DNA of 64,000 nucleotides from the sequence record PZ452611.1; one strand, given 5' to 3'. The notes beneath the pieces are model-generated. The model searched no databases and was not told where the DNA came from. It worked only from the letters and a program-made list of their open reading frames with translations. The position numbers and the translations under genes are program-made. Shown piece by piece: positions 1 through 12,530 of this stretch (position 1 is its first letter; every line of letters begins with the position of its first letter). This DNA is from a phage.

Positions 1-39
1 TGTATTGTTGCAGATAACAACTGTTGTATTAACCGTTTA

Positions 40-1701
40 GTGTCAAGAACATATGGAGGTATGGCTGGGTGCATTTGGGAAACAGTTGACAAGTATGACC
101 ATTTCGGTATTGGGTTTGATGATCACTATGAGATGAGAAACACCAAGCTTTGGTTCAGAATGTCAATAACCAATGCCAGCAACTTCTCCACCCCTGAAAA
201 GATGATTATGACTGTAGACCTTGTTGATGGCACAATCATCTATGTTCCTTTAGCTCAATATGCTGTCAGCATCTCAGAGGATAAGAATGTTGCAGAGATT
301 CATATTGATTTCGAGGACTGCGTCGGGATGGATCAGAACAACAACATGATGGGTGTTGATCCTCGACAGGTGAGAAGGATTTTAATACCGCTTATGCCTA
401 AAGACTGGGTAAGTAATAGCACAGACCCGAGAACGGAAAATGTAGAGTGTGAGTTGCGCCTAGATCTGCTCCAGCCAGACACAGGCTGGAAAATGATGCA
501 ACTTAACAATATTCAGGTTAAAGAGCACGACGTTGGGATCTGCACCGCATATGACGATATGTGGAACGTATCTCCTTTAAGGGTGTTGAACAATATCAAG
601 CGTCTGGGCTATACCGGAACCATAAACCATTATGTTGGTATGAGTCATTATTATGACTACACATGGTCAGGAACCCAATGGTCTATAAACAGAACAGGGG
701 CGCTAAACGCTGCAGCTTATAAATGGCACGATGATTTTATGTACAATGCCAAACGACATAACTTCGACGTTATGCAATCTGTAAGTTTTGAGCTTTTCAG
801 CGATGCCTGCCCGTTGGAATGGACCCAAAGAGACTGGAACGATAACTACGCTAAAACAGGGTATACACCCTGTAGCTACCTCCTGTCTCCAACCATTGAA
901 GAGGGTATGAATTTCCTTACTGCAGTATTTAAGAATTTTGCATCAGCCGCTATGAGAAACAACCTGCCAGTGATTATGCAGGTTGGTGAACCGTGGTGGT
1001 GGTACAATACCGATACTCGTAGACCTTGTATTTATGATTACCCTACAAAGCAGGCGTTTTATGATGAGACAGGTGAGTATGCATTAGATATTGGGACTAT
1101 TGACGATCCTAAAACTGGCGGTGTTTACGACAAGTATGTAGCATTTTGTCGTGGTAAGCTTGGCGCCCGTATTGCGGCTATTTCAAAGGCAATAAAGGCA
1201 CACGCTGCATCAGCTCAGATGACAGCTTTACTGTTTTTCCCAACTATTATGGAAACCGAGCTTACGCAAAAGCTGAACCTTGCCGACCAATATAAAAAAG
1301 AAGCAGGTGCTCTTGATTTCTTCTGCACCGAGTGCTACGATTGGGTGATGCAGGGAGGTATTGAAAAGGCAAAAGAGTCTGTAAACATACCTATCGTTAA
1401 GTTAGGTTGGCAACCGTCTGAAATACAATACCTTGCAGGGTTCGTTCCTAGTAAAGAGCTTGCTCCGGTATATGGATACGACCCAACTAGGAATTACCAA
1501 GAATTTTTATGGAGATGTATTTGCGGAAACATGGCAACTATAGAGTATAGATACCCTGAGGTAAAACAGTATGTGTGGGCATACCCGCAAGTAATGTCTG
1601 ACAGCATCACTGTTACCGCTAGAGATTCTACCGTGCTTCATATGGGGCAGGTTGCTCTGAAAGGGTATGTAGAGGATGTTGTCCCGCCAGACTTCTCATA
1701 A
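40..1701 (+). CDS. hypothetical tail-module protein (possibly 5'-truncated by window edge)
   Basis: 553-aa ORF with GTG at 40; frame is open back to position 1, so the true start may lie upstream of the window; contiguous and co-oriented with tail-fibre genes; no catalytic motif recognised. Confidence 0.55.
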   Translation: MSRTYGGMAGCIWETVDKYDHFGIGFDDHYEMRNTKLWFRMSITNASNFSTPEKMIMTVDLVDGTIIYVPLAQYAVSISEDKNVAEIHIDFEDCVGMDQNNNMMGVDPRQVRRILIPLMPKDWVSNSTDPRTENVECELRLDLLQPDTGWKMMQLNNIQVKEHDVGICTAYDDMWNVSPLRVLNNIKRLGYTGTINHYVGMSHYYDYTWSGTQWSINRTGALNAAAYKWHDDFMYNAKRHNFDVMQSVSFELFSDACPLEWTQRDWNDNYAKTGYTPCSYLLSPTIEEGMNFLTAVFKNFASAAMRNNLPVIMQVGEPWWWYNTDTRRPCIYDYPTKQAFYDETGEYALDIGTIDDPKTGGVYDKYVAFCRGKLGARIAAISKAIKAHAASAQMTALLFFPTIMETELTQKLNLADQYKKEAGALDFFCTECYDWVMQGGIEKAKESVNIPIVKLGWQPSEIQYLAGFVPSKELAPVYGYDPTRNYQEFLWRCICGNMATIEYRYPEVKQYVWAYPQVMSDSITVTARDSTVLHMGQVALKGYVEDVVPPDFS

Positions 1702-1713
1702 TCAGGAGATAAA

Positions 1714-2754
1714 ATGTCAAAACCTAGTTTTCCATTAGAGATTTGGGCAGAGGAGGATCAGGTTCTGCCTAACACCCACAGACAGAACAGGCTACGCCCG
1801 ATTGATGATTTGTGGAGAAAAGGTTGGGATCTTGGTCAAAAGCCCTCATGTGAAGAACTTAACTATATTTTCAATATGCTCGGAACTTGGGCAAAATACA
1901 TTGCTGACGAGCAGATCCCCGCTCAAGAAGGCCGTTATCTGGTACGTGATAATAACTTGAGTGATCTTTTGAACATTCCTGTTGCCCGTAGAAACCTTGG
2001 GATTATTACTAAGGAAGAGGCAGACGCCAGGTATGTAAAAGTTACAGGTGATACAATGACAGGCCCATTGGGTTTGCAACGTATCAACTTTAAAGCTGCC
2101 GAGACAGATAAGGCTTGGATAGAGACAACTATTGGCCCGGATAAGACAACTCTCGACTTTGGGTTAAGTGATAATGCTGGGTCGTTTGATGATGGTGGTA
2201 CATCTACGGTAGATGCGTTTCGTTGGAGATTCCAGCCAACTCAGCCGGATATTAATCCAGAGTTCACTTTGATGTACCTTAACGCGATCACGGCTAATCG
2301 TGCGCTGTTGAAAGTGGTAGGCAATGTTGAAGTTGTCGATAACATGAGGTGCAATAACCTTACTATCAGCAATACAGCAACATTCACCAACTGTAATGTG
2401 GCTAGTCAGTTGACGGCTGGGTCAGTATATGTTAATGGTGGTGCAAGTTGTGACAGTATGGTTGTAAGAAGCCAGCACTGTGTTGTCGGTAACAGAAATG
2501 TGGTGCGCTCCGTGAATGGAGTGACGGCTAACGGTAACGGTGATGTAACGATCACTATCCCGCAGACAGGTGTGCAAGACATCAGAATCGGTGCAAGACT
2601 TGTGGACGGCGTTTCTGAATCTCCAATCCGCAACGGCTACGTTGTCACAGGCTGGCATTTCGGTGACAAAAAAGAGATGCGTGGTTCAACCTACTGGGCA
2701 GGACCTTTACAAAAACTTGTAAATGGTCAATGGATCACTGTTAATTATGCATAG
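1714..2754 (+). CDS. tail fibre protein, paralog 1
   Basis: 346-aa ORF, RBS aggag upstream; N-terminal ~130 aa (PLxIWA..., ARxNLG..., GDxMTG) and C-terminal ...QKLVNGQWITVNYA shared with ORF 3769-4812; fibre-like Gly/Asn/Thr/Val-rich middle. Confidence 0.7.
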   Translation: MSKPSFPLEIWAEEDQVLPNTHRQNRLRPIDDLWRKGWDLGQKPSCEELNYIFNMLGTWAKYIADEQIPAQEGRYLVRDNNLSDLLNIPVARRNLGIITKEEADARYVKVTGDTMTGPLGLQRINFKAAETDKAWIETTIGPDKTTLDFGLSDNAGSFDDGGTSTVDAFRWRFQPTQPDINPEFTLMYLNAITANRALLKVVGNVEVVDNMRCNNLTISNTATFTNCNVASQLTAGSVYVNGGASCDSMVVRSQHCVVGNRNVVRSVNGVTANGNGDVTITIPQTGVQDIRIGARLVDGVSESPIRNGYVVTGWHFGDKKEMRGSTYWAGPLQKLVNGQWITVNYA

Positions 2755-2768
2755 ATCGGAGGACTAGC

Positions 2769-3353
2769 ATGAAAATACTTCAAGAGTTTAAACTTTACCA
2801 ACCGGGATCTGGCGAATACCACTCCAACAAGGAAACCAAGGAGCTGACCCCTCAAGAGGTTGAGGATTACACCGCATACACTGGGTATTTTTTACGTAAT
2901 GATGATGGCGATTGGTATGTGCAGTCACGAACATTACGACAAGAAAATCCGGGTTGTATCTTCCTACTTGTTGACGAGAAGGGAATTCTTAAGACATCTA
3001 CAGAAGAACCTGATGCCTTATGGCCTGCTCCAGGTCTTCGTGTGGTTATCGCCAAAAAAGAAGAGGTACCAGAAAACATTATGCTTCACCACGACGCTTT
3101 GCGTTTAGTTGGTGATGAATTTGTCACAGATAATGAATTCTTTGTTCAACAGGCAGAGGGTGTCATAGAGACAGAACTTGCTTGGGCTACTGCTAGAATT
3201 GGTGCCTATCAAGACATGATTGACCTTGAATATGATCTTACTGATGACCAGAAACGTAACATCAGAGATTTGAAAATGTACAGGGTAAAACTTCTTGAAA
3301 TAGATACATCTAAAGCCCCTGACATTTTCTTCCCGGAGCGACCTACCCTCTAA
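2769..3353 (+). CDS. hypothetical protein (possible fibre-associated/assembly protein)
   Basis: 194-aa ORF immediately after fibre paralog 1; RBS ggagga upstream; no recognisable motif. Confidence 0.5.
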   Translation: MKILQEFKLYQPGSGEYHSNKETKELTPQEVEDYTAYTGYFLRNDDGDWYVQSRTLRQENPGCIFLLVDEKGILKTSTEEPDALWPAPGLRVVIAKKEEVPENIMLHHDALRLVGDEFVTDNEFFVQQAEGVIETELAWATARIGAYQDMIDLEYDLTDDQKRNIRDLKMYRVKLLEIDTSKAPDIFFPERPTL

Positions 3354-3364
3354 GAGGAGGTGTT

Positions 3365-3679
3365 GTGGAGTTGGATTTGGCGGCATTGTACGGTATCTGC
3401 ATGGGTACCGTTGTCCCGATCTGTGTATGGGCTTTCAACCAGTGGCACACCAAATGGAAAGGCATTTCCAAGAGGTTGGATGAACTGGAGAAAGACCTCA
3501 TCTTAGTGAAAAACAGCATGGTTACAAAAGATAAACTTGATTCCGTTATCGAGACCCGGTTAAGCAAGCTAGAGGCCGATATTAACGACCTTAAGCAGGA
3601 TGTCAGGACAGATGTCTCCGGTATCCGAGCTGATGTACAAAAGATTTTGCACATGCTCGTAGAGCATAGTAAAAGGTAA
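3365..3679 (+). CDS. small membrane/coiled-coil protein
   Basis: 104-aa ORF, GTG start 5-6 nt after AGGAGG; one hydrophobic helix (ICMGTVVPICVWAF) followed by heptad-like charged segment. Confidence 0.45.
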   Translation: MELDLAALYGICMGTVVPICVWAFNQWHTKWKGISKRLDELEKDLILVKNSMVTKDKLDSVIETRLSKLEADINDLKQDVRTDVSGIRADVQKILHMLVEHSKR

Positions 3680-3688
3680 ACAAAGGTC

Positions 3689-3720
3689 AGAACGGAAAGG
3701 ACTCCGTTCTTGCATTTTGT
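3689..3720 (+). terminator. putative intrinsic terminator
   Basis: stem AGAACGGA / TCCGTTCT with 6-nt loop followed by T-rich tract tgcattttgt, directly after stop of ORF 3365-3679. Confidence 0.5.
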
Positions 3721-3768
3721 TCTCTAAAGTGTTAAAATAGTCCTAAGGAATTTTCTCAGGAGAACGCG

Positions 3769-4812
3769 ATGACTAAACCAGTTATCCCTCTTGATATTTG
3801 GGCCAATCAGGATGTTGTGCTTGAAAATACGGGAGAGTTGAATAAGTCTCAACCAAAAAAAGAAGAGAGATTGAAAGGTTGGGATATGACACAAAGAGTG
3901 GCATGTGAAGTTGTTAACTTTGAACTTCACATGCTTTCTGCGTGGTTAAAGCATCTAACAGAAGATGTTGTCCCAGGATGGGATAATAGATTCTTAAGGG
4001 TCACTAATAATCTAGCAGACGTTCCAGACAAAGCTGCTGCACGTCAAGTTCTCAATGTATACTCGCCTGAAGAAATGGACGATCTGTATGTTGACAAGTC
4101 TGGAGACATAATGACTCAGACTCAAACTTTAGGCCTTCAAAGAATCGAGTTTGCATCTGCGTCAACAGACAATGCGGCAATATATACCACCATAACCTCA
4201 GACAAGACGATGATGGATTTCTGGATTATGGACAACATCGGTGGTGCTGACGGCACAGATCTTGATGATCCTTCTCACCAAATAGACGGGTTCCGTTGGA
4301 GATTTCAGCCTTCTGGTGGGCAGCCTGTGTTTTCGGCTATGAAGCTCAATGCTATAACTGCCAACCGTGCAAGACTGGCTATCCAAGGAAATCTTGAATG
4401 CAACGATGCAAAAAGTTCCTCTGCAAATGCCAATGCAGTTACTATACCAAGAGCCACTGTTAATGGACAACAATCCTGTGGAAGCGCTCAAATAGGTGGA
4501 AGAGTTGATTGTAACGATGAAACAGTCAGGGGTCAATATGCAACAGTTGGTGGAAGAAACGTGGTCCGCAGGGTAAATGGTAACGGCGCAGACAGTAGTG
4601 GTAACCTTACTATCCCTATGCCCAGCAGAGGGGTTGATGATGTAAGGATAGCAAACCGTTTCAAAACCACCTACAGAGAGTCAAGAGTCTACCCTGGACA
4701 TGTGATGTGTTCGGGTAACTACGCTTATAAACACCCTTATCAAGGTGATTACTGGACAGGTGCTATCCAAAAACTTGTAAATGGTCAATGGATCACTATA
4801 TCTTATGCTTAA
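3769..4812 (+). CDS. tail fibre protein, paralog 2
   Basis: 347-aa ORF; same N-terminal architecture as 1714-2754 and C-terminal ...QKLVNGQWITISYA; last ~30 nt of coding sequence identical to paralog 1. Confidence 0.7.
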   Translation: MTKPVIPLDIWANQDVVLENTGELNKSQPKKEERLKGWDMTQRVACEVVNFELHMLSAWLKHLTEDVVPGWDNRFLRVTNNLADVPDKAAARQVLNVYSPEEMDDLYVDKSGDIMTQTQTLGLQRIEFASASTDNAAIYTTITSDKTMMDFWIMDNIGGADGTDLDDPSHQIDGFRWRFQPSGGQPVFSAMKLNAITANRARLAIQGNLECNDAKSSSANANAVTIPRATVNGQQSCGSAQIGGRVDCNDETVRGQYATVGGRNVVRRVNGNGADSSGNLTIPMPSRGVDDVRIANRFKTTYRESRVYPGHVMCSGNYAYKHPYQGDYWTGAIQKLVNGQWITISYA

Positions 4813-4823
4813 AAAGAGGGTAA

Positions 4824-5090
4824 ATGAAACTAACTCAGTTTTTATGGGGACTGGTTGCGGCATCTGATGACCCTACGAAAGTGTCCCAATCTAAGCTATG
4901 GTCAAACATAGGCATGGCGGTGATGACTGGGGTGTTTATTCATATGGGGTACAATGATACGCTTCCTGAGTGGTATGCGTGGATATATGCACCTTCAGTA
5001 GCCTGCCCCCAGCTTATTAGCAAATTCATCTCGCTCCGGTGGGGTTGCCAGCACCCTGACCACGTTAAAAACGAAGAGCAAAAAGCTTAA
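4824..5090 (+). CDS. small membrane protein
   Basis: 88-aa ORF with RBS agaggg; hydrophobic segment NIGMAVMTGVFIHMGY; position after fibre gene. Confidence 0.45.
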   Translation: MKLTQFLWGLVAASDDPTKVSQSKLWSNIGMAVMTGVFIHMGYNDTLPEWYAWIYAPSVACPQLISKFISLRWGCQHPDHVKNEEQKA

Positions 5091-5099
5091 GGAGAAATC

Positions 5100-6845
5100 A
5101 TGGCGCAAGACATGACAAGCTTCGAGCAGGCGGTAGATCAAGTAATTGTTGATTCTGAACGTTTGCACTTGATTGTCAACGGTAACGCTGTGGATGAAGT
5201 TGTCGTAGAGGATGGGACCACTATCCCTACGGTACGAAAAGCCATGCTTGACACCCTTTATTTTAAAACGCCACCAATCCCTTGGGCGTATGGTGCATCC
5301 ACAACAGTTTTTAACCAGTTGTATGAGTTTAAAGGGGATACAGGCACTCAGTGGTGGTACGCCCCAGCAGCATCAAAATCTAACCCGGTTAGAATGCCAG
5401 CAGATCCTTCACAATCTCCAAACTGGAGATTATACACCGACTCTGCAGTAATGGCAAAATACTACGCAAAACTTAACAGCCCAAGGTTCGAAGGTGACCC
5501 GAGAGTACCTACACCTCCAATGGACGATAAGTCAGAGTCCATAGCAAACACAGAGTTTGTTGTTGACTATGTTGATAGCATATTTAAAGCCATGGAGGGG
5601 ATGAAAGTTACTGTAGGATCTTTGGTGGTAAAAGGTCTTACAGAACTCGCTAACACTATAGTTGGTGGCACCCTTACCTTACATGGACCTGTTAATGGGG
5701 CAGATTCTACTGCACGCTTTAGGAATCTAATCCTCACGGCAAATACTTCTACACTTACTTTTGCGTGGAGCGATCCTAAGCATGCAGACTGGAGAAGTAC
5801 AGAGCTGCAACCTCATGAAGTGTCCACCCACAGGGTTATAGCTGACACTATAACTTCTGGGAAACCAGTGGCTAATAATAACGATGTGCATTTTGATGGT
5901 CTGGGTAATAACTTTTTTGACTACGTGTACATTCGTGGTAATGCCATGAAGGCAGCAACCGAACCGACATTGCAGGTCGATGGGACCACCAGGGTTAAGA
6001 ACCTTGAGGTGACAGGTACCGTTACAGGGATAACATACTCTGTCGATGGCACCATGATCTACCCTAGCTATATTGAAAGCACGGGTGATGCATTGATAAA
6101 TGGCGATTTGGAGGTTGGCGGGTCTGTAGTTATTCGAGGTACAGCCTCTATCCAAAATATAGCTCTGAATACTCTAAGAGTCAATGAGCGTGCAACTTTT
6201 GAAGGAGAAGGGCTTACAGCTAATAAAGGTACAATTACCGAGCTGACCACCACCACTTTAACTGCAACAACTGCAAACTCTGAAAACTGCAACATTACCA
6301 GAAACTTACAGGTAAATGGAGATGTTAGTTTAAACGCCGCAGGGACTGGCACCACCTACCTTCACAACCTTGAAATATCCGGCACAGTGACTGGGTGGCT
6401 GCCAGACTTCTCTAATGTCAACTTTGTTTGTAATGGCATCAACTCCAGTGGTAAGATAACCACCTCTCAAGAAATTGAGGCGGGTAAAACCATTACTGCC
6501 CCTACTTTCCACGCAGGAAAGGTAGATTTTGATTTAGAGGAGGTTGACGCGTCCAGTGGGACATGGACACCTAACGGACAGGCCAGTATGTATGTTGTCC
6601 ACGCTAAAGGGGATTTTACAATAGGTCAGTGGCCTGGGACATCAGCGGAAGATAAACCTTATCCATTCACTGCAGTTATCTATGTAATTCAGGATGCTGT
6701 AGGTCACAACGTGACTTTGCACGATAAGTATGCTATCCTGTCGGCAACACCTGTTATTAACAACAAGGCTAACAGTGTTACCCTGCTGCAATTAACATAT
6801 TGTGGTGTTGGTGATATCGTAGACGTAGTAATTGCACAACGTTAA
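5100..6845 (+). CDS. tail fibre / tail spike-like protein
   Basis: 581-aa ORF, RBS aaggag; repeated short beta-strand-like motifs (VTGTVTG, EISGTVTG, LxVNG) and Gly/Thr/Asn-rich composition typical of fibre shafts; located in tail module. Confidence 0.55.
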   Translation: MAQDMTSFEQAVDQVIVDSERLHLIVNGNAVDEVVVEDGTTIPTVRKAMLDTLYFKTPPIPWAYGASTTVFNQLYEFKGDTGTQWWYAPAASKSNPVRMPADPSQSPNWRLYTDSAVMAKYYAKLNSPRFEGDPRVPTPPMDDKSESIANTEFVVDYVDSIFKAMEGMKVTVGSLVVKGLTELANTIVGGTLTLHGPVNGADSTARFRNLILTANTSTLTFAWSDPKHADWRSTELQPHEVSTHRVIADTITSGKPVANNNDVHFDGLGNNFFDYVYIRGNAMKAATEPTLQVDGTTRVKNLEVTGTVTGITYSVDGTMIYPSYIESTGDALINGDLEVGGSVVIRGTASIQNIALNTLRVNERATFEGEGLTANKGTITELTTTTLTATTANSENCNITRNLQVNGDVSLNAAGTGTTYLHNLEISGTVTGWLPDFSNVNFVCNGINSSGKITTSQEIEAGKTITAPTFHAGKVDFDLEEVDASSGTWTPNGQASMYVVHAKGDFTIGQWPGTSAEDKPYPFTAVIYVIQDAVGHNVTLHDKYAILSATPVINNKANSVTLLQLTYCGVGDIVDVVIAQR

Positions 6846-6852
6846 TATATCT

Positions 6853-6882
6853 AACCGCTCCTGACGGGGCGGTTTTCTTATC
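6853..6882 (+). terminator. putative intrinsic terminator
   Basis: AACCGCTCC-tgac-GGGGCGGTT hairpin followed by TTTCTTATCT after stop of ORF 5100-6845. Confidence 0.55.
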
Positions 6883-6893
6883 TGGAGAACACA

Positions 6894-9800
6894 ATGCTTC
6901 CAATCCCTTTGCTAAAACTTGGTCGTCATTTCCTCGATAAGAGGGGTGGAATTAAGGAACTTGCTGTTCTGTCATACCCAATAGACAACAGTGATGGCAC
7001 AAGCAATACAGTATCCTATGTAAATAGCTTAGCTATACTTTTTGATGATGGTCAGCTTAATATTACTGGCTATAATAGGTTCGGAGAGTGTCGGACTGGA
7101 GATCTTGATACAATAAACTATCCTAATGAGGCAGCTTGGAACGTAGACCATGTTTGGAGAGCTGACCGTGCATTTGTAATCCGCACATTCGATAATAAAT
7201 TTTTCTATATTGGTTGCACAGCTGGTCTTATCGGATCGGAGGCAGCAGGTGGAAACGATGTTTGTGTCAGAGAGTGGACACCTTTGCCGGAACAGATCGT
7301 AACAGGGTTGCATTTGGACACCCATCCTGAGAGACTTGTTGAAGTAATGGGTGGCGTAAACAATACCGTGTGGGTAATTGCTGCACCAGAGGCTGATGGT
7401 ATGCTTCACCTGTACGGCTCTGGCAATAATACTTACGGCTCTCTTCATGTTGACAAAAGTCAACACGCTACTCCAGTTAAGATCGGTGAAACATCTGAAA
7501 GTCCAGAGACAGGTCCTTGGAAAAATCCAAGAATTAATTGTGAAGTTCATGACAACTCGGTTATTTTTGGTGGTCCTAACGGATTCTGGATTGCAGGTTA
7601 CGATTTCTTACGAAATAACAGCAAAAACACACTAGTTTATCCAGCCGAGCATGTGACTCTTGACCAGTTTAAAGGCATCCCGGTGGGCGAGACATGGAAA
7701 GGGTTCATGTGTGGACCTAATGGTGCAATTATAGCCACAGAAAGGATGCACAAACCTGATGACCAACAGCTTGTTAATGTGTTTTATGGTCAGGATGTTT
7801 GGGGTGACGACACGTGGAGAAGCCTTAACATCACCTATACCCATGAAGTAATTATGGCTCGCGGGTACGGGACTAGTGGAATTTTCTTCAATAATGGTAC
7901 AAAACAGTACCGTGGTTTCTCCAGAAACCTGTGTAACGATATTGGTGCTCAATCTGCTAATAATAGTCCTAGGGCCAATTTTATTCATTACAGAGCGCTG
8001 GCAACAGCTAAGTTTGTTGAACAGACAGAGCCAGTAAGCTGGACAGAAAGCGTTTATTTTCAAGGGATCCACAGGGAAGGTTTCTTAGGCACATTCTGTG
8101 TGGTAAATGGAAAGCTTTGGTGGTCAGGAATACCACGTGGTAGTTTTTCAGGATCTAATAACCTCTTTGGCGGCAGACTTAACAGCCAAGGGTTCACAGA
8201 GATTCCGGAGAATTGGTATAAAAATGTCCCGGTAGATAGCTGGGGTATCGAAGACATCTTTGATGTCAATGGTGTGAGCAATGTTAGCAACATTTACATC
8301 GGAGATACTGTCAAGATGAAATTGAAACCTCAGCCGGAGGGTGCTACGTTCATTATTGACAAGATTGAGTTGGTAAATGCTGCAGGCACTGTTGTTACAG
8401 ATGCAAACTATCAGTTCTCCACTAACTGGAACCATGGTGGTGCTAACGAAGTTGTGGTCACCCAGTATAACCGTAACATCAACAGACGTGGTTTGTATTC
8501 TATCAAGATCACCTACCATGACAAGCATGGCACTGGAAGAACCTATACGACAAGGACTTTGAACTGGAACACTATAGTTCCTGCGTATCCGTCCAACGGC
8601 AAGTGGCATACTGTCGGTAGAAACAAACAGTTCCATGTTAACGATACTGTATACTTCGGACTGAATGGGACTCAGCCTGCAGTAGAAGGGGATACATCGT
8701 ATATGGTCCGACTCCACAGAATGGATGCTGGATCAGTCACTTATGATGTTACCCAAGAGATTTATGATCAGAGACGAAATACCTACAACAACTTGGTGCA
8801 GACACAGGCCGTATGGGAGTTCAACCCTAACGGCAGAGGTGGTAAAATGTTGCAGGTTAACGAGCAAAACGGAACGTCGTTGACTGTCCACGAACACCCA
8901 GACCCTTGGCCTGATCCTGGAAAACCTCACCCTGGCGCTCGTACACTGAAAATTGTCAGCCATGATGTAGGATATTTCGGAATACGCTGGGAAGCTACAG
9001 TAAGATATGCCGACGGGACAACAAACAACATAGGGATCACTCTTGGTGGCACTAGTGAGGATAACTCACTGAAAATTGCCTACACTCCTAGAGGCATCTC
9101 TATTGACAATATGGATGTTGTTCGCAACGGTTACGGCGATGTGAATGTCAAAGTTACTCTTGGCGAACATCTTGGTGGGGAAAGGATCATCATGTATGCC
9201 TTTGATCATGATCCGCGCACCAATGGGACTTATGCAAATCAGGCATGGAGTTACCTGATAAATGCACCTGAGCCAAATACTAAAGAGTTCTACTATGGTA
9301 TGAAGCGAGATGTGTGCAAGAAAACAGGAACACATGATTGGATTGCTATCTGCGTTAAAGATGAGCGCACAGCTTGGGATGAGCCTGTTAACAGATGGTT
9401 CATAGGTATTCCTACCAGAAGTGATAAGTATGTCGCAGAATATATTGTATGCATGGGCGGTACCAACCTAAACATGTGTTGGAACGAAGATGTAAACAAA
9501 TACTCTGATTATGACTATATGAGGGATTACTCTTGTAATTTGTGGTTTAACCAAACTACAGGTTACCCTCCGCGTCAGGCAAGGGTAAATCCTGCAATCT
9601 TTACAGATACGCAGGTTTTCTTGACAAAACAGGCCAACGAGGTCCAGACCTTCAAGAACAAATACGACCCTAATAAGTGGTTCTATAACTGCTATGGGGC
9701 ATTTTTCTGGGGACCTGGAGAATTACCTGGTGGTGGCTCTTGTTTTGAGGCTGCAACTTACGCCAGTGACAGATTTATGGGCCAGGTCAAGAAATACAAG

Positions 9801-12530
9801 ATAATTCCAGGGCCTGAAACTTTAGGTAACGCTGTCGACCCCTATATCATCATGAGTGATCTAAGATCGAACATGGATGGAACATCCATATCTATGCAAG
9901 TTCCGGTAACAAACGGATACAAGCGTGTTGTGATGATCATTAAGTGCGATCTGATAGGTAAGCAAGTTCTTGCAGAGAACGGAACTTCCACCCACCTATT
10001 TGAGACTGCTCTGCACTATCAGTTTGCTGATTCACCTTTTGCAGGGGATAAGAGAATATCTGACACAGACGCTGTGCGATGCAAGAAATTTATGCTAGGT
10101 GGTGGGTGGTGGTGGTATGAATTTGACTTAACAGACAAATTCACCGACACATCTAAAGTGGTGACAGGACTTCGTCTAGACCTGGGTGAGAACATGCATA
10201 AAAGTGTTTGTGATGGCACCTACGGTGATCCTACGGTATACTTGAAGTATGTTTCTTTTGAGCACCCTGAAGATGTTGTTTATGGTCCAAAACTGAGGCT
10301 GTTTGGCAATTGGATTGCTAAAGACAGAGAAGGGATGGGTAGGAAGGTAAGAGGCTTCCTGGTCGATGCTGGCACAGAGGATATGCTGGTGAATGCGGTG
10401 TGGCCTGAATTACCGGGAACTCAGTGGGACAATTCTGCTAAGTCTATAAACTGGTTCAATATCCACAGAGCTATGTGGGCAACTAACTGCTATCTGTGGA
10501 AAGAGTTGAATGACGGCGCTTTCGGGTTTACTGGTGGCAGAAGAATGGCAATCATTTGCTGGACAACGCTGCAGAGATGTTATGACCATGACTATGAGAT
10601 TGGAGGCAGGGCATGGAAAAATATAAGGGATAGAATCATAACTAACTTTGCAGATCCTAACGGTGGCGGGGCGTATGGTTTCGACTGCAGCAGACTTATC
10701 CATTTGAACGGATCTTCGGCCTATAAGAAAGAAGGCTACTCCGGGTCCATGATTGAATGGGGCTTGGTAAAAGATGCTCGTGTGTTGATGGGTCAGCAAC
10801 TTGCTGCTGCAATAGGACCGAACGCAGTACAATCTGTTAAACCAGCGTGGTTCGATATCCCATTATGGTCCTCTGGAACACCAGGAACTGCTGCAATCAA
10901 CCCTACCACTGGGGATCTGGAAATCTCCTGGGAGGACTTGAAGCAGGTTGGTGGCTGGGATAAGACAGGGTACCAGGTGCAATGGTGGAGAGCTGACGGA
11001 TCTTTAGCCGCTGAGGAGTTTGTTAAGGACAATTTCTACACCATGTCCTCTGCAAAAGCACAGGAATTGTTCGGTCAGGCAGCTCCGTCAACGATCACCA
11101 TGTCTATGTGCTGTAAAGACAACAGGACTGGAGCTTTGGGGCCAAGGGTTGCTAAGGTTTTCTCAGGTATTAAATGGAATCTCCCTGTTCAAAGTGTTTC
11201 ATGGAAGCAAATAGGTGATAACAAGCTGCTGGTTACCCCCGCCTGTCAGTTCAACGCAACTCTTAACGTTGATCCTGCTGTTGCGGCAAACTCAGCTAAA
11301 GCTTCTGACTTCTCTGTGTCTAACACTGCTATGGCAGATGTGAGGAAGATTGACACACTGAACGCCAGAATTACCTGTAAAAACACTTATGGCACATTCC
11401 AGATTATCAACAACTTCACAGATGCTGATTCTAAGGTAGTGAGGACAGCAAGCCAGACTCTGAGTTTAGGAACTCTGGCCTATGCGGCCCTGATCACTGA
11501 ACAGTCGGCAACACTCCAAGGAGGTGGCGTAGGTAAATCTATTGCAACACCAGTATGGAAGCCAAATGAGTGGGTTGTATTTGATCTGGCTGTTGACTTC
11601 TCTAGCGATAATAACTGGACGTGGGTAAGGAATTGCTTACCTCAATTGATGGGTGGTCCAAGCTCTGTCAGCGATAGCCACGATTCTACTGACCCCAGCG
11701 TGTTCCAGGTTGGTAAAACTCACCCAGAGACGGGAGCAACGTTGCCTGACAGGAAGTATGCTTTGGTTTGCATCTCTTACGGAAAAGCAGATGTCACCTT
11801 CTCAGGGACACACACTTATAACGGAACTTACAACTTCTCAAGGAAGTATAGTCTCAAAGCAGGGAACATTATAGACGAGGTTGGTGTGCTGTATAATCCG
11901 GGCAACGGCATAGGGATTGTTGGTGGTAAACTGCAGATGCAGGAACCTTCTATTACCCCTTCCAACGTAGCCGGGATTAGAAAGACTTGGGAAAGTAGTA
12001 ATACCAACATTGCAACAGTGGATGCCACCACAGGACTGGTAACATTTAAAGCTACTGGGAATGTCACCATAAAGTTTGTAGTTACTGATGATGCAGGGCG
12101 CAAAACGTCTTCAACATCTTTTACTGTCAAACAGATGGCACCACAGTGGAGAATGTGGATAGGTACAGCAACAAACGGGGCATACCCTAATCCGGCAGGT
12201 ACTTCTGGTATGAAGACTTTCTCTACAAGCAAACCGATGGAGTACGGCAGCGGTCCTAAGGTAGGGCAGATGGTGTACTTTGGTGCGTATATTCCTGAAA
12301 TTATAGGGCTTCCGAGAAGTCAGCTTCAGTTGCTGTTTGGGGCTGGTGTTGACGATCTTGCCACTTTCGGGTATAGCGACAACATCGAGGCTGCAAGGAG
12401 TTCAGGATGGGTAGGGTTCAGAATGGAGTCTGGAAAGGAAGGCAGGATTCTAGGGACAGCCTCTATAGGTGTTATGTTCCCTGGTGACCAGCAGTATCGT
12501 CTAGAAGCCTACGCAACCTTTTCTCGTTAA
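6894..12530 (+). CDS. large virion-associated protein with Ig-like (Big_2-type) domain; putative tail/adhesin protein
   Basis: 1878-aa ORF; C-terminal segment ...IRKTWESSNTNIATVDATTGLVTFKATGNVTIKFVVTDDAGRKTSSTSFTV matches bacterial Ig-like group 2 pattern; N-terminal region has repeated G-x-x-G beta-propeller-like repeats (tentative); follows fibre genes. Confidence 0.65.
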   Translation: MLPIPLLKLGRHFLDKRGGIKELAVLSYPIDNSDGTSNTVSYVNSLAILFDDGQLNITGYNRFGECRTGDLDTINYPNEAAWNVDHVWRADRAFVIRTFDNKFFYIGCTAGLIGSEAAGGNDVCVREWTPLPEQIVTGLHLDTHPERLVEVMGGVNNTVWVIAAPEADGMLHLYGSGNNTYGSLHVDKSQHATPVKIGETSESPETGPWKNPRINCEVHDNSVIFGGPNGFWIAGYDFLRNNSKNTLVYPAEHVTLDQFKGIPVGETWKGFMCGPNGAIIATERMHKPDDQQLVNVFYGQDVWGDDTWRSLNITYTHEVIMARGYGTSGIFFNNGTKQYRGFSRNLCNDIGAQSANNSPRANFIHYRALATAKFVEQTEPVSWTESVYFQGIHREGFLGTFCVVNGKLWWSGIPRGSFSGSNNLFGGRLNSQGFTEIPENWYKNVPVDSWGIEDIFDVNGVSNVSNIYIGDTVKMKLKPQPEGATFIIDKIELVNAAGTVVTDANYQFSTNWNHGGANEVVVTQYNRNINRRGLYSIKITYHDKHGTGRTYTTRTLNWNTIVPAYPSNGKWHTVGRNKQFHVNDTVYFGLNGTQPAVEGDTSYMVRLHRMDAGSVTYDVTQEIYDQRRNTYNNLVQTQAVWEFNPNGRGGKMLQVNEQNGTSLTVHEHPDPWPDPGKPHPGARTLKIVSHDVGYFGIRWEATVRYADGTTNNIGITLGGTSEDNSLKIAYTPRGISIDNMDVVRNGYGDVNVKVTLGEHLGGERIIMYAFDHDPRTNGTYANQAWSYLINAPEPNTKEFYYGMKRDVCKKTGTHDWIAICVKDERTAWDEPVNRWFIGIPTRSDKYVAEYIVCMGGTNLNMCWNEDVNKYSDYDYMRDYSCNLWFNQTTGYPPRQARVNPAIFTDTQVFLTKQANEVQTFKNKYDPNKWFYNCYGAFFWGPGELPGGGSCFEAATYASDRFMGQVKKYKIIPGPETLGNAVDPYIIMSDLRSNMDGTSISMQVPVTNGYKRVVMIIKCDLIGKQVLAENGTSTHLFETALHYQFADSPFAGDKRISDTDAVRCKKFMLGGGWWWYEFDLTDKFTDTSKVVTGLRLDLGENMHKSVCDGTYGDPTVYLKYVSFEHPEDVVYGPKLRLFGNWIAKDREGMGRKVRGFLVDAGTEDMLVNAVWPELPGTQWDNSAKSINWFNIHRAMWATNCYLWKELNDGAFGFTGGRRMAIICWTTLQRCYDHDYEIGGRAWKNIRDRIITNFADPNGGGAYGFDCSRLIHLNGSSAYKKEGYSGSMIEWGLVKDARVLMGQQLAAAIGPNAVQSVKPAWFDIPLWSSGTPGTAAINPTTGDLEISWEDLKQVGGWDKTGYQVQWWRADGSLAAEEFVKDNFYTMSSAKAQELFGQAAPSTITMSMCCKDNRTGALGPRVAKVFSGIKWNLPVQSVSWKQIGDNKLLVTPACQFNATLNVDPAVAANSAKASDFSVSNTAMADVRKIDTLNARITCKNTYGTFQIINNFTDADSKVVRTASQTLSLGTLAYAALITEQSATLQGGGVGKSIATPVWKPNEWVVFDLAVDFSSDNNWTWVRNCLPQLMGGPSSVSDSHDSTDPSVFQVGKTHPETGATLPDRKYALVCISYGKADVTFSGTHTYNGTYNFSRKYSLKAGNIIDEVGVLYNPGNGIGIVGGKLQMQEPSITPSNVAGIRKTWESSNTNIATVDATTGLVTFKATGNVTIKFVVTDDAGRKTSSTSFTVKQMAPQWRMWIGTATNGAYPNPAGTSGMKTFSTSKPMEYGSGPKVGQMVYFGAYIPEIIGLPRSQLQLLFGAGVDDLATFGYSDNIEAARSSGWVGFRMESGKEGRILGTASIGVMFPGDQQYRLEAYATFSR

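What the first reader, a model, noticed from the sequence alone, without database searches (positions are those of the whole stretch)
1714..4812. Two paralogous tail-fibre genes with identical 3' ends, each followed by a small gene
Seen: ORFs 1714-2754 and 3769-4812 share N-terminal architecture and end in the same ...QKLVNGQWIT(V/I)(N/S)YA, with ~30 nt identical at the nucleotide level (caaaaacttgtaaatggtcaatggatcact), while central regions diverge. Each is followed by a small ORF (2769-3353; 4824-5090). Inference: duplicated receptor-binding cassettes allowing dual or switchable host specificity; the conserved 3' block could be a recombination anchor or a shared attachment/chaperone-recognition site.
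Basis: partly seen in the sequence, partly recalled or inferred. Interest (0 to 1): 0.45.

Follow-up and report, generated by a model that had tools for sequence, protein, structure and literature searches.

The report
Two short tail fibre paralogs, rV5
These are the two already-published short tail fibre genes (gp33 and gp30) of E. coli phage rV5, with one chaperone gene between them; the only new detail is that their shared 3' stretch comes from repeated gene conversion between the two copies.

Summary
The window is phage rV5 (100% identity). ORFs 1714-2754 and 3769-4812 are gp33 and gp30. They are full-length paralogs (42% aa identity, E 2e-92) that end in QKLVNGQWIT. A 30-nt block is exactly identical in both (2710-2739 and 4768-4797).

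It is not new. Kropinski 2013 reported the 42% paralogy and found gp30, gp32 and gp33 in virions. Maffei 2021 called them two short tail fibre paralogs plus a Mu GpU-like chaperone.

The "fibre plus small gene" symmetry is false. gp32 (2769-3353) is a Caudo_TAP chaperone. gp29 (4824-5090) is an unrelated membrane protein that single-fibre relatives also carry. In those relatives a 157-aa membrane gene sits where gp30 sits in rV5. gp30 follows a hairpin and has its own late promoter.

There is no invertible switch: no flanking inverted repeats, and both genes are on one strand.

The 3' block is the terminal beta-hairpin of a Mu S-like tip. Its nucleotide identity reflects gene conversion: 9/9 codons match against 31% elsewhere, synonymous changes co-vary within other genomes, and a metagenomic relative has a 110-nt identical tract. 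That one chaperone serves both fibres is an inference.

Low interest.

The parts
1714..2754 (+). gp33, short tail fibre paralog A (346 aa)
   Evidence: 100% identical to rV5 gp033. phrog_4465 E 2e-171. N-terminal residues 1-108 match the phiTE short tail fibre 9cuy (E 1.4e-19). C-terminal residues 286-343 match the Mu S tip 5yvq.
2769..3353 (+). gp32, tail fibre assembly chaperone (Tfa, 194 aa)
   Evidence: PF02413 Caudo_TAP, E 9e-12, above the curated cut-off, on residues 121-192. phrog_136 E 2e-36. Detected in virions (PMC3606486). It is the only Tfa gene in the locus.
3365..3679 (+). gp31, 104-aa protein with a hydrophobic N-terminus and a coiled coil. It is conserved context, not a fibre partner.
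   Evidence: phrog_5345. Homologs follow the Tfa gene in Av-05, GAP31, L011 and PaulScherrer.
3689..3710 (+). Hairpin followed by a T-rich run: a terminator-like element between gp31 and gp30
   Evidence: Found by the terminator scan. RNA fold -16 kcal/mol, z -3.3. Phage WM carries a compensatory A-U to C-G change in the stem.
3717..3753 (+). Putative late promoter P030 (core TGTTAAAATA at 3730-3739)
   Evidence: Listed as late promoter P030 in Table S4 of PMC3606486. The core motif is conserved upstream of the gp30 homolog in all clades examined.
3769..4812 (+). gp30, short tail fibre paralog B (347 aa)
   Evidence: 100% identical to rV5 gp030. phrog_4465 E 1e-165. 42% identical to gp33. Detected in virions.
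4824..5090 (+). gp29, 88-aa membrane protein. It is not related to gp32 and is not specific to gp30.
   Evidence: phrog_1322 'membrane protein', no Pfam hit. Homologs are present in single-fibre relatives, downstream of a 157-aa membrane gene.
2710..2739 (+). 30-nt block, copy 1 (codons for QKLVNGQWIT of gp33)
4768..4797 (+). 30-nt block, copy 2 (codons for QKLVNGQWIT of gp30)

Best explanation
Shown: these are the two short tail fibre (STF) genes of Vequintavirus rV5. Both products are homologous along their whole length. Each has an N-terminal domain like the one that docks the phiTE STF onto baseplate wedge protein 1, a shaft, and a C-terminal tip homologous to the Mu S/S' receptor-binding tip. 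One Mu GpU / lambda Tfa-type chaperone gene (gp32) follows gp33, and gp30 has none of its own. gp30 lies behind a hairpin and its own late promoter. It occupies the slot where single-STF relatives carry a 157-aa membrane-protein gene, so the second copy is a Vequintavirus-specific addition. Published mass spectrometry found gp33, gp30 and gp32 together in virions. The shared ...YW.G..QKLVNGQWIT... is the terminal beta-hairpin of the tip and is conserved as far as Mu S/S' and phiTE. Its exact nucleotide identity comes from short-tract gene conversion between the paralogs. Conversion recurs in different lineages with different tract boundaries, and in one metagenomic clade it has homogenised nearly the whole tip. 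Inferred: both fibres are co-assembled on each virion. The single Tfa nucleates trimerisation of both at the shared C-terminal tip and stays attached. Selection for compatibility with that one chaperone, together with the structural role of the hairpin, keeps this stretch alike and so keeps it a substrate for further conversion. In rV5 the two divergent tips (30% identity over residues 286-326) broaden or back up recognition of the LPS core.
For: The window is identical to rV5 and the annotations agree. The two genes are paralogs. Both match phrog_4465, and gp32 matches PF02413. Matches to solved structures: phiTE STF N-terminus (E 1.4e-19 single sequence, 2e-29 with a profile), and the Mu S and S' tips including the Q-x-x-x-N-G-x-W motif. 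Residues 3-92 of the phiTE STF bind wedge 1 (PMC11972413). Virion mass spectrometry found gp30, gp32 and gp33 (PMC3606486). Maffei 2021 describes two STF paralogs plus a chaperone, homologous to Mu GpS/GpU. The single-copy loci Av-05, GAP31, L011 and PaulScherrer all run STF, Tfa, gp31-like; the first three continue with a 157-aa gene, then gp29-like. The hairpin and P030 are supported. Gene conversion: in rV5, 9 of 9 codons match in the block against 31% elsewhere (p 6e-5), and 0 of 5000 shuffles reach a 30-nt run. In L008 and L010 both paralogs carry the same three synonymous changes relative to rV5, and in Aya both carry aat>aac. L017 has a 110-nt identical tract between its paralogs (33 of 34 codons, p 3e-10), while the orthologs are 82% identical there. 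In L007, L016 and L017 the tips are 84-90% identical between paralogs, against 45% in the rV5 clade. The model in which the variable Tfa N-domain binds the fibre tip and the conserved C-domain trimerises comes from PMC9608196.
Against: No experiment shows that gp30 needs or binds gp32. The gp30 tip lacks the TGW.FG.KKE.RG motif that Tfa-served tips share. The monomer AlphaFold2 model was poor (pLDDT 60.8) and gave no significant fold match, so the hairpin's position rests on sequence alignment and on moderately confident local strands. The number and position of each fibre on the baseplate are unknown. No receptor has been mapped to either paralog. Among isolates, host range correlates with other fibre genes. 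The divergent two-copy loci come from metagenome or Logan assemblies, not from finished genomes.
Confidence: 0.7

Rival explanations
1. gp30 was not duplicated in place. It was captured from another Vequintavirinae-like phage together with its own promoter, and the 3' block is the scar or anchor of that recombination.
For: gp30 is about equally distant from gp33 (43%), Av-05 (41%) and GAP31 (44%), whereas gp33 is closer to Av-05 (51%). gp30 carries its own hairpin and promoter and replaces a different gene.
Against: In residues 111-200 the two paralogs are each other's closest relatives (57-60%, against 44-52% to other genera). No donor closer than 44% was found in 50,697 phage records. The closest hits among 5.8 billion proteins are all from two-copy Vequintavirus-like loci. 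An origin by capture would not explain the later within-genome co-variation.
Confidence: 0.2
2. The 30-nt identity is kept by a function of the nucleotide sequence itself, such as an RNA element, translational coupling to the next gene, or a protein-binding site, and not by gene conversion.
For: The block lies 12-15 nt before each stop codon and close to the next gene's ribosome-binding site. It is exact in rV5, MaxBurger, AlexBoehm and Aya.
Against: Other viable phages differ between paralogs at 2-4 of the 30 positions (WM, SYGMH1, BP9, YP-6, JEP1, JES2013). The L007, L016 and L017 clade differs at about 7-8 positions. Some gp30 alleles even change Leu to Phe. The conversion tracts in L016 and L017 lie elsewhere in the tip.
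Confidence: 0.05
3. This is a host-range switch: the two 3' ends are alternative cassettes exchanged by site-specific inversion or programmed recombination, as in the Mu G or P1 C segments.
For: There are two fibre genes with a shared sequence block, and the tip is homologous to Mu S/S'.
Against: The repeats are direct, not inverted. No flanking inverted repeats were found. Both genes are complete and independently translatable. Both products are in virions. The genome paper reports no invertase or recombinase. The gene order is fixed in more than 100 genomes.
Confidence: 0.03
4. gp30 is independent of Tfa and has a role other than a second LPS-core adhesin, for example a structural or trigger fibre. 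The shared hairpin then reflects only the fold.
For: No chaperone gene follows gp30. Its tip lacks the motif common to Tfa-served tips. It is transcribed from a separate promoter together with gp29 and gp28.
Against: In the L007, L016 and L017 clade the gp30-position protein carries a gp33-type tip. The docking residues of the N-terminal domain are conserved in both paralogs (invariant P4, W11, A12, N25, P29, G37, D39, E47, N50, W59).
Confidence: 0.15

Closest known systems
rV5 gp30/gp33 short tail fibres with chaperone gp32, as published (Kropinski et al. 2013, PMC3606486; Maffei et al. 2021, PMC8594841, S5D Fig)
   Same: It is the same object: the window is 100% identical to rV5. The 42% paralogy, the presence of both proteins in virions, the late promoter P030 and the homology to Mu GpS/GpU are all already in print.
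   Different: The papers read here do not mention the exact 30-nt block or gene conversion between the paralogs. They also do not mention that gp30 takes the place of the 157-aa membrane gene of single-copy genera.
Phage Mu tail fibre S/S' with assembly protein U/U' (PDB 5YVQ, 8JU3)
   Same: The C-terminal tip is homologous, including the ...PIQ..ING.W... ending. A Caudo_TAP chaperone gene lies immediately downstream. The chaperone is found in virions.
   Different: Mu has one 5' fibre part and two alternative 3' parts, each with its own Tfa, on an invertible segment, and expresses one at a time. rV5 has two complete genes in direct orientation, one Tfa and co-expression. The N-terminal and shaft regions are not Mu-like.
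Pectobacterium phage phiTE short tail fibre (PDB 9CUY/9MJN; Certrevirus, Vequintavirinae)
   Same: The N-terminal ~108-135 residues are homologous (E 2e-29), and the C-terminal ...PIQKKVNGVWVTI matches. In phiTE residues 3-92 dock on wedge 1.
   Different: phiTE has one 554-aa STF with a long coiled coil, and the phage is flagellotropic. rV5 has two ~346-aa copies.
Single short tail fibre plus chaperone loci of Justusliebigvirus (phi92-like, PaulScherrer), Avunavirus Av-05 and Seunavirus GAP31
   Same: The gene order is the same: STF, Tfa, gp31-like. The same tip motif is present.
   Different: These phages have one STF only. Av-05 and GAP31 have a 157-aa polytopic membrane gene (PF26221) where rV5 has the hairpin, P030 and gp30.
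T4 gp12 short tail fibre
   Same: The proposed role is the same: a baseplate-attached trimer that binds the LPS core. Kropinski 2013 reports HHpred hits of 97.7-98.4% probability.
   Different: phmmer and a profile hmmsearch against the PDB returned no match at E<=1 and E<=0.1 respectively. T4 gp12 uses the gp57A chaperone, not a Caudo_TAP protein (background knowledge).

Membership tests
Vequintavirinae short tail fibre (PHROG 4465) | Full-length match to the family profile | tested here: met
   gp33 E 1.9e-171 over 1-346 of 342 profile positions. gp30 E 1.4e-165 over 1-347.
Vequintavirinae short tail fibre (PHROG 4465) | N-terminal baseplate (wedge 1) docking domain as solved in the phiTE STF | tested here: met
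   Sequence homology to 9cuy residues 1-111 and 1-138, E 1.4e-19 and 2e-29. Docking itself was not tested.
Vequintavirinae short tail fibre (PHROG 4465) | Presence in the virion | not testable with these tools
   Published mass spectrometry lists gp30, gp32 and gp33 (PMC3606486).
Mu S-type fibre tip with Caudo_TAP (Tfa) chaperone | C-terminal tip homologous to Mu S/S' | tested here: met
   5yvq_A full-sequence E 6e-6, with tip stretch 286-343 aligned to 440-501. 8ju3_A E 1e-3 with the profile. The significance is modest. The gp30 tip is more divergent.
Mu S-type fibre tip with Caudo_TAP (Tfa) chaperone | Tfa gene immediately downstream of the fibre gene | tested here: met
   Met for gp33: gp32 matches PF02413 at 45.7 bits against a cut-off of 22.1. 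NOT met for gp30: the next gene, gp29, has no Tfa similarity.
Mu S-type fibre tip with Caudo_TAP (Tfa) chaperone | The chaperone binds the fibre tip and is needed for trimer folding | not testable with these tools
   Inferred from the Mu and Pam3 work summarised in PMC9608196.
Invertible host-range segment (Mu G / P1 C type) | Alternative 3' fibre segments in opposite orientation, bounded by inverted repeats | tested here: not met
   Both genes are on the + strand. The longest inverted repeat in 1-7000 is 26 nt at 73% and does not flank the genes.
Invertible host-range segment (Mu G / P1 C type) | Adjacent Gin/Cin-type invertase | tested here: not met
   None among the annotated genes within 8 kb on either side. 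The genome paper mentions no invertase, recombinase or integrase. The whole window was not scanned against Pfam.
Diversity-generating retroelement target | Template and variable repeat pair with adenine-specific differences, plus a reverse transcriptase | tested here: not met
   The differences in the 62-nt repeat involve all bases. No reverse transcriptase is mentioned for rV5.
T4 gp12-type short tail fibre | Detectable homology to the gp12 collar and receptor-binding domain | tested here: not met
   No gp12 chain was found by phmmer or hmmsearch against the PDB. An HHpred match was reported by others, but profile-profile comparison was not run here.

The most novel reading that the evidence does not exclude
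Recurrent gene conversion between the two fibre genes is selected, not incidental. Because one chaperone (gp32) must fold both fibres, the C-terminal nucleation hairpin, and in some lineages the whole tip, is repeatedly homogenised. A phage could then keep two fibres with different shafts or tips on a single chaperone. It might even form mixed trimers.
Probability: 0.25. Interest if true: 0.4.

Novelty: already known. Interest (0 to 1): 0.2.

Why it matters
Vequintaviruses are among the broadest-host-range coliphages and are used for phage therapy and O157 typing. Knowing which fibre binds which LPS core, and whether one chaperone serves both, matters for engineering their host range. The paralogs themselves are textbook-level for this phage group. 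The only added value here is evidence that their 3' ends evolve in concert and that the second copy is a genus-specific insertion with its own promoter. That is a modest refinement, not a discovery.

Tried and rejected
1. AlphaFold2 monomer model of gp33 with a 32-sequence alignment: mean pLDDT 60.8, pTM 0.31. A Foldseek search of the PDB gave no hit at E<=0.001. This is uninformative, as expected for a trimeric fibre. Multimer prediction with gp32 was not possible with these tools.

2. Sequence search of gp32 against the PDB gave only chance hits.

3. A scan of IMG/VR for gp30 relatives returned only 4 near-identical loci. The useful diversity came from Logan and ENA contigs and from GenBank isolates.

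4. Invertible switch: rejected.

5. DGR: rejected, because the mismatches are not adenine-specific and no reverse transcriptase is mentioned for rV5.

6. A nucleotide-level functional element: rejected, because the block varies in other viable phages.

7. Searches for experimental work on either paralog found no deletion or receptor-mapping study.

8. The North et al. papers on Mu Tfa were not held in the library. The Tfa mechanism is therefore cited second-hand from PMC9608196.
Full report
IDENTITY OF THE WINDOW. Bases 1-7000 of the window are 100% identical to Escherichia phage V5/rV5 (DQ832317 / NC_011041), reverse-complemented. In the RefSeq annotation, ORF 1714-2754 is rv5_gp033 and 2769-3353 is gp032 (tail fibre assembly protein). 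ORF 3365-3679 is gp031, 3769-4812 is gp030 and 4824-5090 is gp029 (membrane protein). ORFs 5100-6845 and 6894-12530 are the larger fibre proteins gp028 and gp027. The BASEL phage MaxBurger annotates the same genes as 'short tail fiber protein' (twice) and 'tail fiber chaperone'.

THE OBSERVATION. Both ORFs are present. BLASTP gives 42% identity and 58% positives over the full length, E 2e-92. Both end in QKLVNGQWIT(V/I)(N/S)YA. The 30-nt string occurs exactly twice in the window (2710-2739 and 4768-4797) and never in shuffles, even with three mismatches allowed. It sits inside a 62-nt repeat that is 84% identical.

The block is not explained by amino-acid conservation alone. Across the gene pair, only 36% of identical degenerate residues use the same codon. 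In the block 9 of 9 do, against 40 of 127 elsewhere (Fisher p 6e-5). A 30-nt identical run was reached in 0 of 5000 codon-column shuffles.

The centre is not the divergent part. Residues 111-200 are the most similar large region (57%). The least similar are 286-326 (30%), 201-285 (34%) and 1-110 (38%).

WHAT THE PROTEINS ARE. Both match PHROG 4465 end to end (E 1e-171 and 1e-165). Against solved structures, residues 1-108 match the N-terminus of the phiTE short tail fibre (9cuy). The E-value is 1.4e-19 for the single sequence and 2e-29 for a 16-sequence profile. The last ~60 residues match the tips of Mu S (5yvq) and Mu S' (8ju3), including the terminal ...P(I/L)Q..(V/I)NG.W... motif. In the phiTE cryo-EM structure, residues 3-92 of the STF form the joint that binds baseplate wedge 1 (PMC11972413).

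gp32 matches Pfam Caudo_TAP (PF02413) above the curated cut-off, on residues 121-192. This is the conserved C-terminal trimerisation domain of Tfa chaperones. In Mu-type Tfa proteins the variable N-terminal domain is the part that binds the fibre tip (PMC9608196).

THE SMALL GENES ARE NOT A REPEATED PARTNER. gp29 has no Pfam match and belongs to a membrane-protein PHROG, so it is unrelated to gp32. Single-fibre relatives show the ancestral order. Av-05 (Avunavirus), GAP31 (Seunavirus) and the metagenomic contig L011 all read STF, Tfa, gp31-like (104 aa), 157-aa polytopic membrane protein (PF26221 Phage_phiTE_239), gp29-like (87-89 aa), gp28-like. PaulScherrer, a phi92-like phage, has STF, Tfa and a gp31-like gene, followed by a large fibre gene.

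In rV5, gp30 therefore stands where the 157-aa gene stands elsewhere, and gp29 is inherited context. tblastn finds two STF copies per genome only in Vequintavirus.

The 89-nt gap before gp30 holds a hairpin followed by a T-rich run at 3689-3710. It folds at -16 kcal/mol with z -3.3, and phage WM carries a compensatory change in the stem. The gap also holds the motif TGTTAAAATA. Kropinski et al. already listed this as late promoter P030 (Table S4), and it is conserved in every clade examined. gp30 therefore heads its own late transcription unit with gp29 and gp28.

WHAT IS ALREADY PUBLISHED. Kropinski et al. 2013 reported that gp30 and gp33 are 42.3% identical and resemble T4 gp12 by HHpred. 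[quoted passage not shown] Maffei et al. [quoted passage not shown] Mathieu et al. 2020 found that host-range differences among rV5-like isolates track Orf27 and Orf41, not these genes. The finding as stated is thus known.

THE 3' BLOCK: GENE CONVERSION. I collected both paralogs from 17 further genomes (the script also returned two single-copy IMG/VR fragments, L012 and L013). They comprised nine GenBank isolates, two IMG/VR contigs, and six Logan or ENA contigs found through protein homologs.

The block is not invariant. Between the paralogs of one genome it differs at 0 positions in rV5, MaxBurger, AlexBoehm and Aya. It differs at 1-2 positions in L008, L009 and L010. It differs at 2-4 positions in WM, SYGMH1, BP9, YP-6, JEP1, JES2013, L014 and L015, and at about 7-8 in L007, L016 and L017. 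This argues against a function of the nucleotide sequence itself.

The changes co-vary within genomes. In L008 and L010 both paralogs carry ctt>ctg, gta>gtc and caa>cag relative to rV5. In Aya both carry aat>aac.

In the divergent clade (L007, L016, L017), copy A is 72% identical to gp33 and copy B is 49% identical to gp30. There the last 61 residues are 84-90% identical between the paralogs, against 45% in the rV5 clade. In L017 a 110-nt tract (codons ~289-326) is identical in both copies: 33 of 34 codons are the same (p 3e-10), and 0 of 5000 shuffles reach that length. The A orthologs are only 81-82% identical over the same tract, while L017 B is 92% identical to L007 B. This points to a B-to-A conversion. 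L016 has a different 30-nt tract starting at residue 325.

Conversion is therefore recurrent, with tracts of about 30-110 nt and boundaries that differ by lineage. The effect is concerted evolution of the paralogs, not exchange of cassettes.

SWITCHING IS NOT SUPPORTED. The repeats are direct. No meaningful inverted repeats flank the genes. Each gene has its own start codon and Shine-Dalgarno sequence. The rV5 genome paper mentions no invertase, integrase, recombinase or reverse transcriptase. The gene order is the same in more than 100 genomes. Both proteins are in virions.

MECHANISM, WITH STATUS OF EACH STEP.
- Shown: there are two homologous fibres with a phiTE-type docking N-terminus and a Mu S-type tip, one Tfa gene, separate promoters, and gene conversion at the 3' ends.
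- Published by others: all three proteins are in virions, and infection depends on the LPS core.
- Inferred: both fibres are mounted on the same virion. gp32 nucleates trimerisation of both at the shared terminal hairpin and remains bound. The need to fit one chaperone, together with the structural role of the hairpin, keeps this stretch alike. In rV5 the different tips widen or back up LPS-core recognition.
- Caveats: the gp30 tip lacks the TGW.FG.KKE.RG motif that chaperone-served tips share, so gp30 may be Tfa-independent. In the L007 clade both copies carry the same tip type, so two different tips are not a universal requirement.

ORIGIN OF THE SECOND COPY. gp30 is about equally distant from gp33, Av-05 and GAP31 (41-44%), whereas gp33 is closer to Av-05 (51%). 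In residues 111-200, however, the paralogs are each other's closest relatives. No closer donor was found in the phage records or in the 5.8-billion-protein collection. The likeliest history is duplication in the Vequintavirus ancestor followed by faster divergence of gp30. Capture from another phage is not excluded.

gp30 is also the more variable copy today. Among GenBank records, 40 gp30 hits are at or above 99% identity, against 96 for gp33. In metagenomic relatives gp30 homologs are 78% and 49% identical to rV5, against 87% and 72% for gp33 homologs.

STRUCTURE PREDICTION. The AlphaFold2 monomer model was poor (pLDDT 60.8) and gave no significant fold match. Locally it places residues 326-336 and 339-342 as the last two strands, with the N-G at 337-338 between them. 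The conserved block would then be a terminal beta-hairpin, but confidence there is only moderate (pLDDT 65-83).

VERDICT. The object is already known. It is wrong on switchable specificity and on symmetric fibre-plus-small-gene cassettes. Interest is low. The concerted evolution of the 3' ends and the insertion history of gp30 are small additions that I did not find in the papers read here.

Noticed in passing
window 3365-3679 and 4824-5090; L004 5138-6201; L005 5150-6219; L011 7647-8716: A trio of small membrane-protein genes sits inside the tail-fibre module of Vequintavirinae. They are a gp31-like 104-aa protein (hydrophobic N-terminus plus coiled coil), a 157-aa polytopic protein (PF26221 Phage_phiTE_239) and a gp29-like ~88-aa protein. 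rV5 lacks the middle one, and gp30 is in its place. Their function is unknown. Superinfection exclusion or a lysis-related role would be guesses.
   Followed up: partly
window 1-7000 (search result): Sixteen GenBank records named 'Campylobacter phage' (MG0656xx; 15 list Campylobacter jejuni as host) match this E. coli phage locus; all those listed are over 98% identical. They are probably coliphages carried along in a Campylobacter phage collection or mislabelled.
   Followed up: no
window 40-1701: The C-terminal part of gp34 matches the N4 gp65-type 'non-contractile tail sheath' TIM-barrel and N-terminal domains (PF23845 E 2e-80, PF23844). This agrees with the published role of this Vequintavirus fibre in binding the ECA/NGR glycan.
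   Followed up: no
window 1810-1863 (gp33 residues 33-50) and 2210-2237 (FRWRFQP); counterparts in gp30 at about 3865-3918 and 4283-4310: Two further short patches have unusually high codon identity between the paralogs: 7 of 7 same codons at residues 33-50 (p 6e-4), and a 28-nt repeat at 86%. They may be older conversion tracts at the other most conserved motifs.
   Followed up: partly
L007 7076-7432; L016 6024-6404; L017 6067-6447: In the divergent two-copy clade the gp29 homolog carries a 30-40-residue C-terminal extension rich in Y-S-D/R repeats (RYSD...), which is absent in rV5.
   Followed up: no
L019 (WM), L021 (BP9), L022 (YP-6), L014: gp30 homolog, codon for Leu335: Several gp30 alleles have Leu to Phe (QKFVNGQW) inside the otherwise invariant hairpin, so the motif tolerates some change in the B copy.
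   Followed up: no
window 6853-6874: A strong terminator-like hairpin lies between gp28 and gp27 (published as t028). The unit P030, gp30, gp29, gp28 therefore appears to be bounded on both sides.
   Followed up: no
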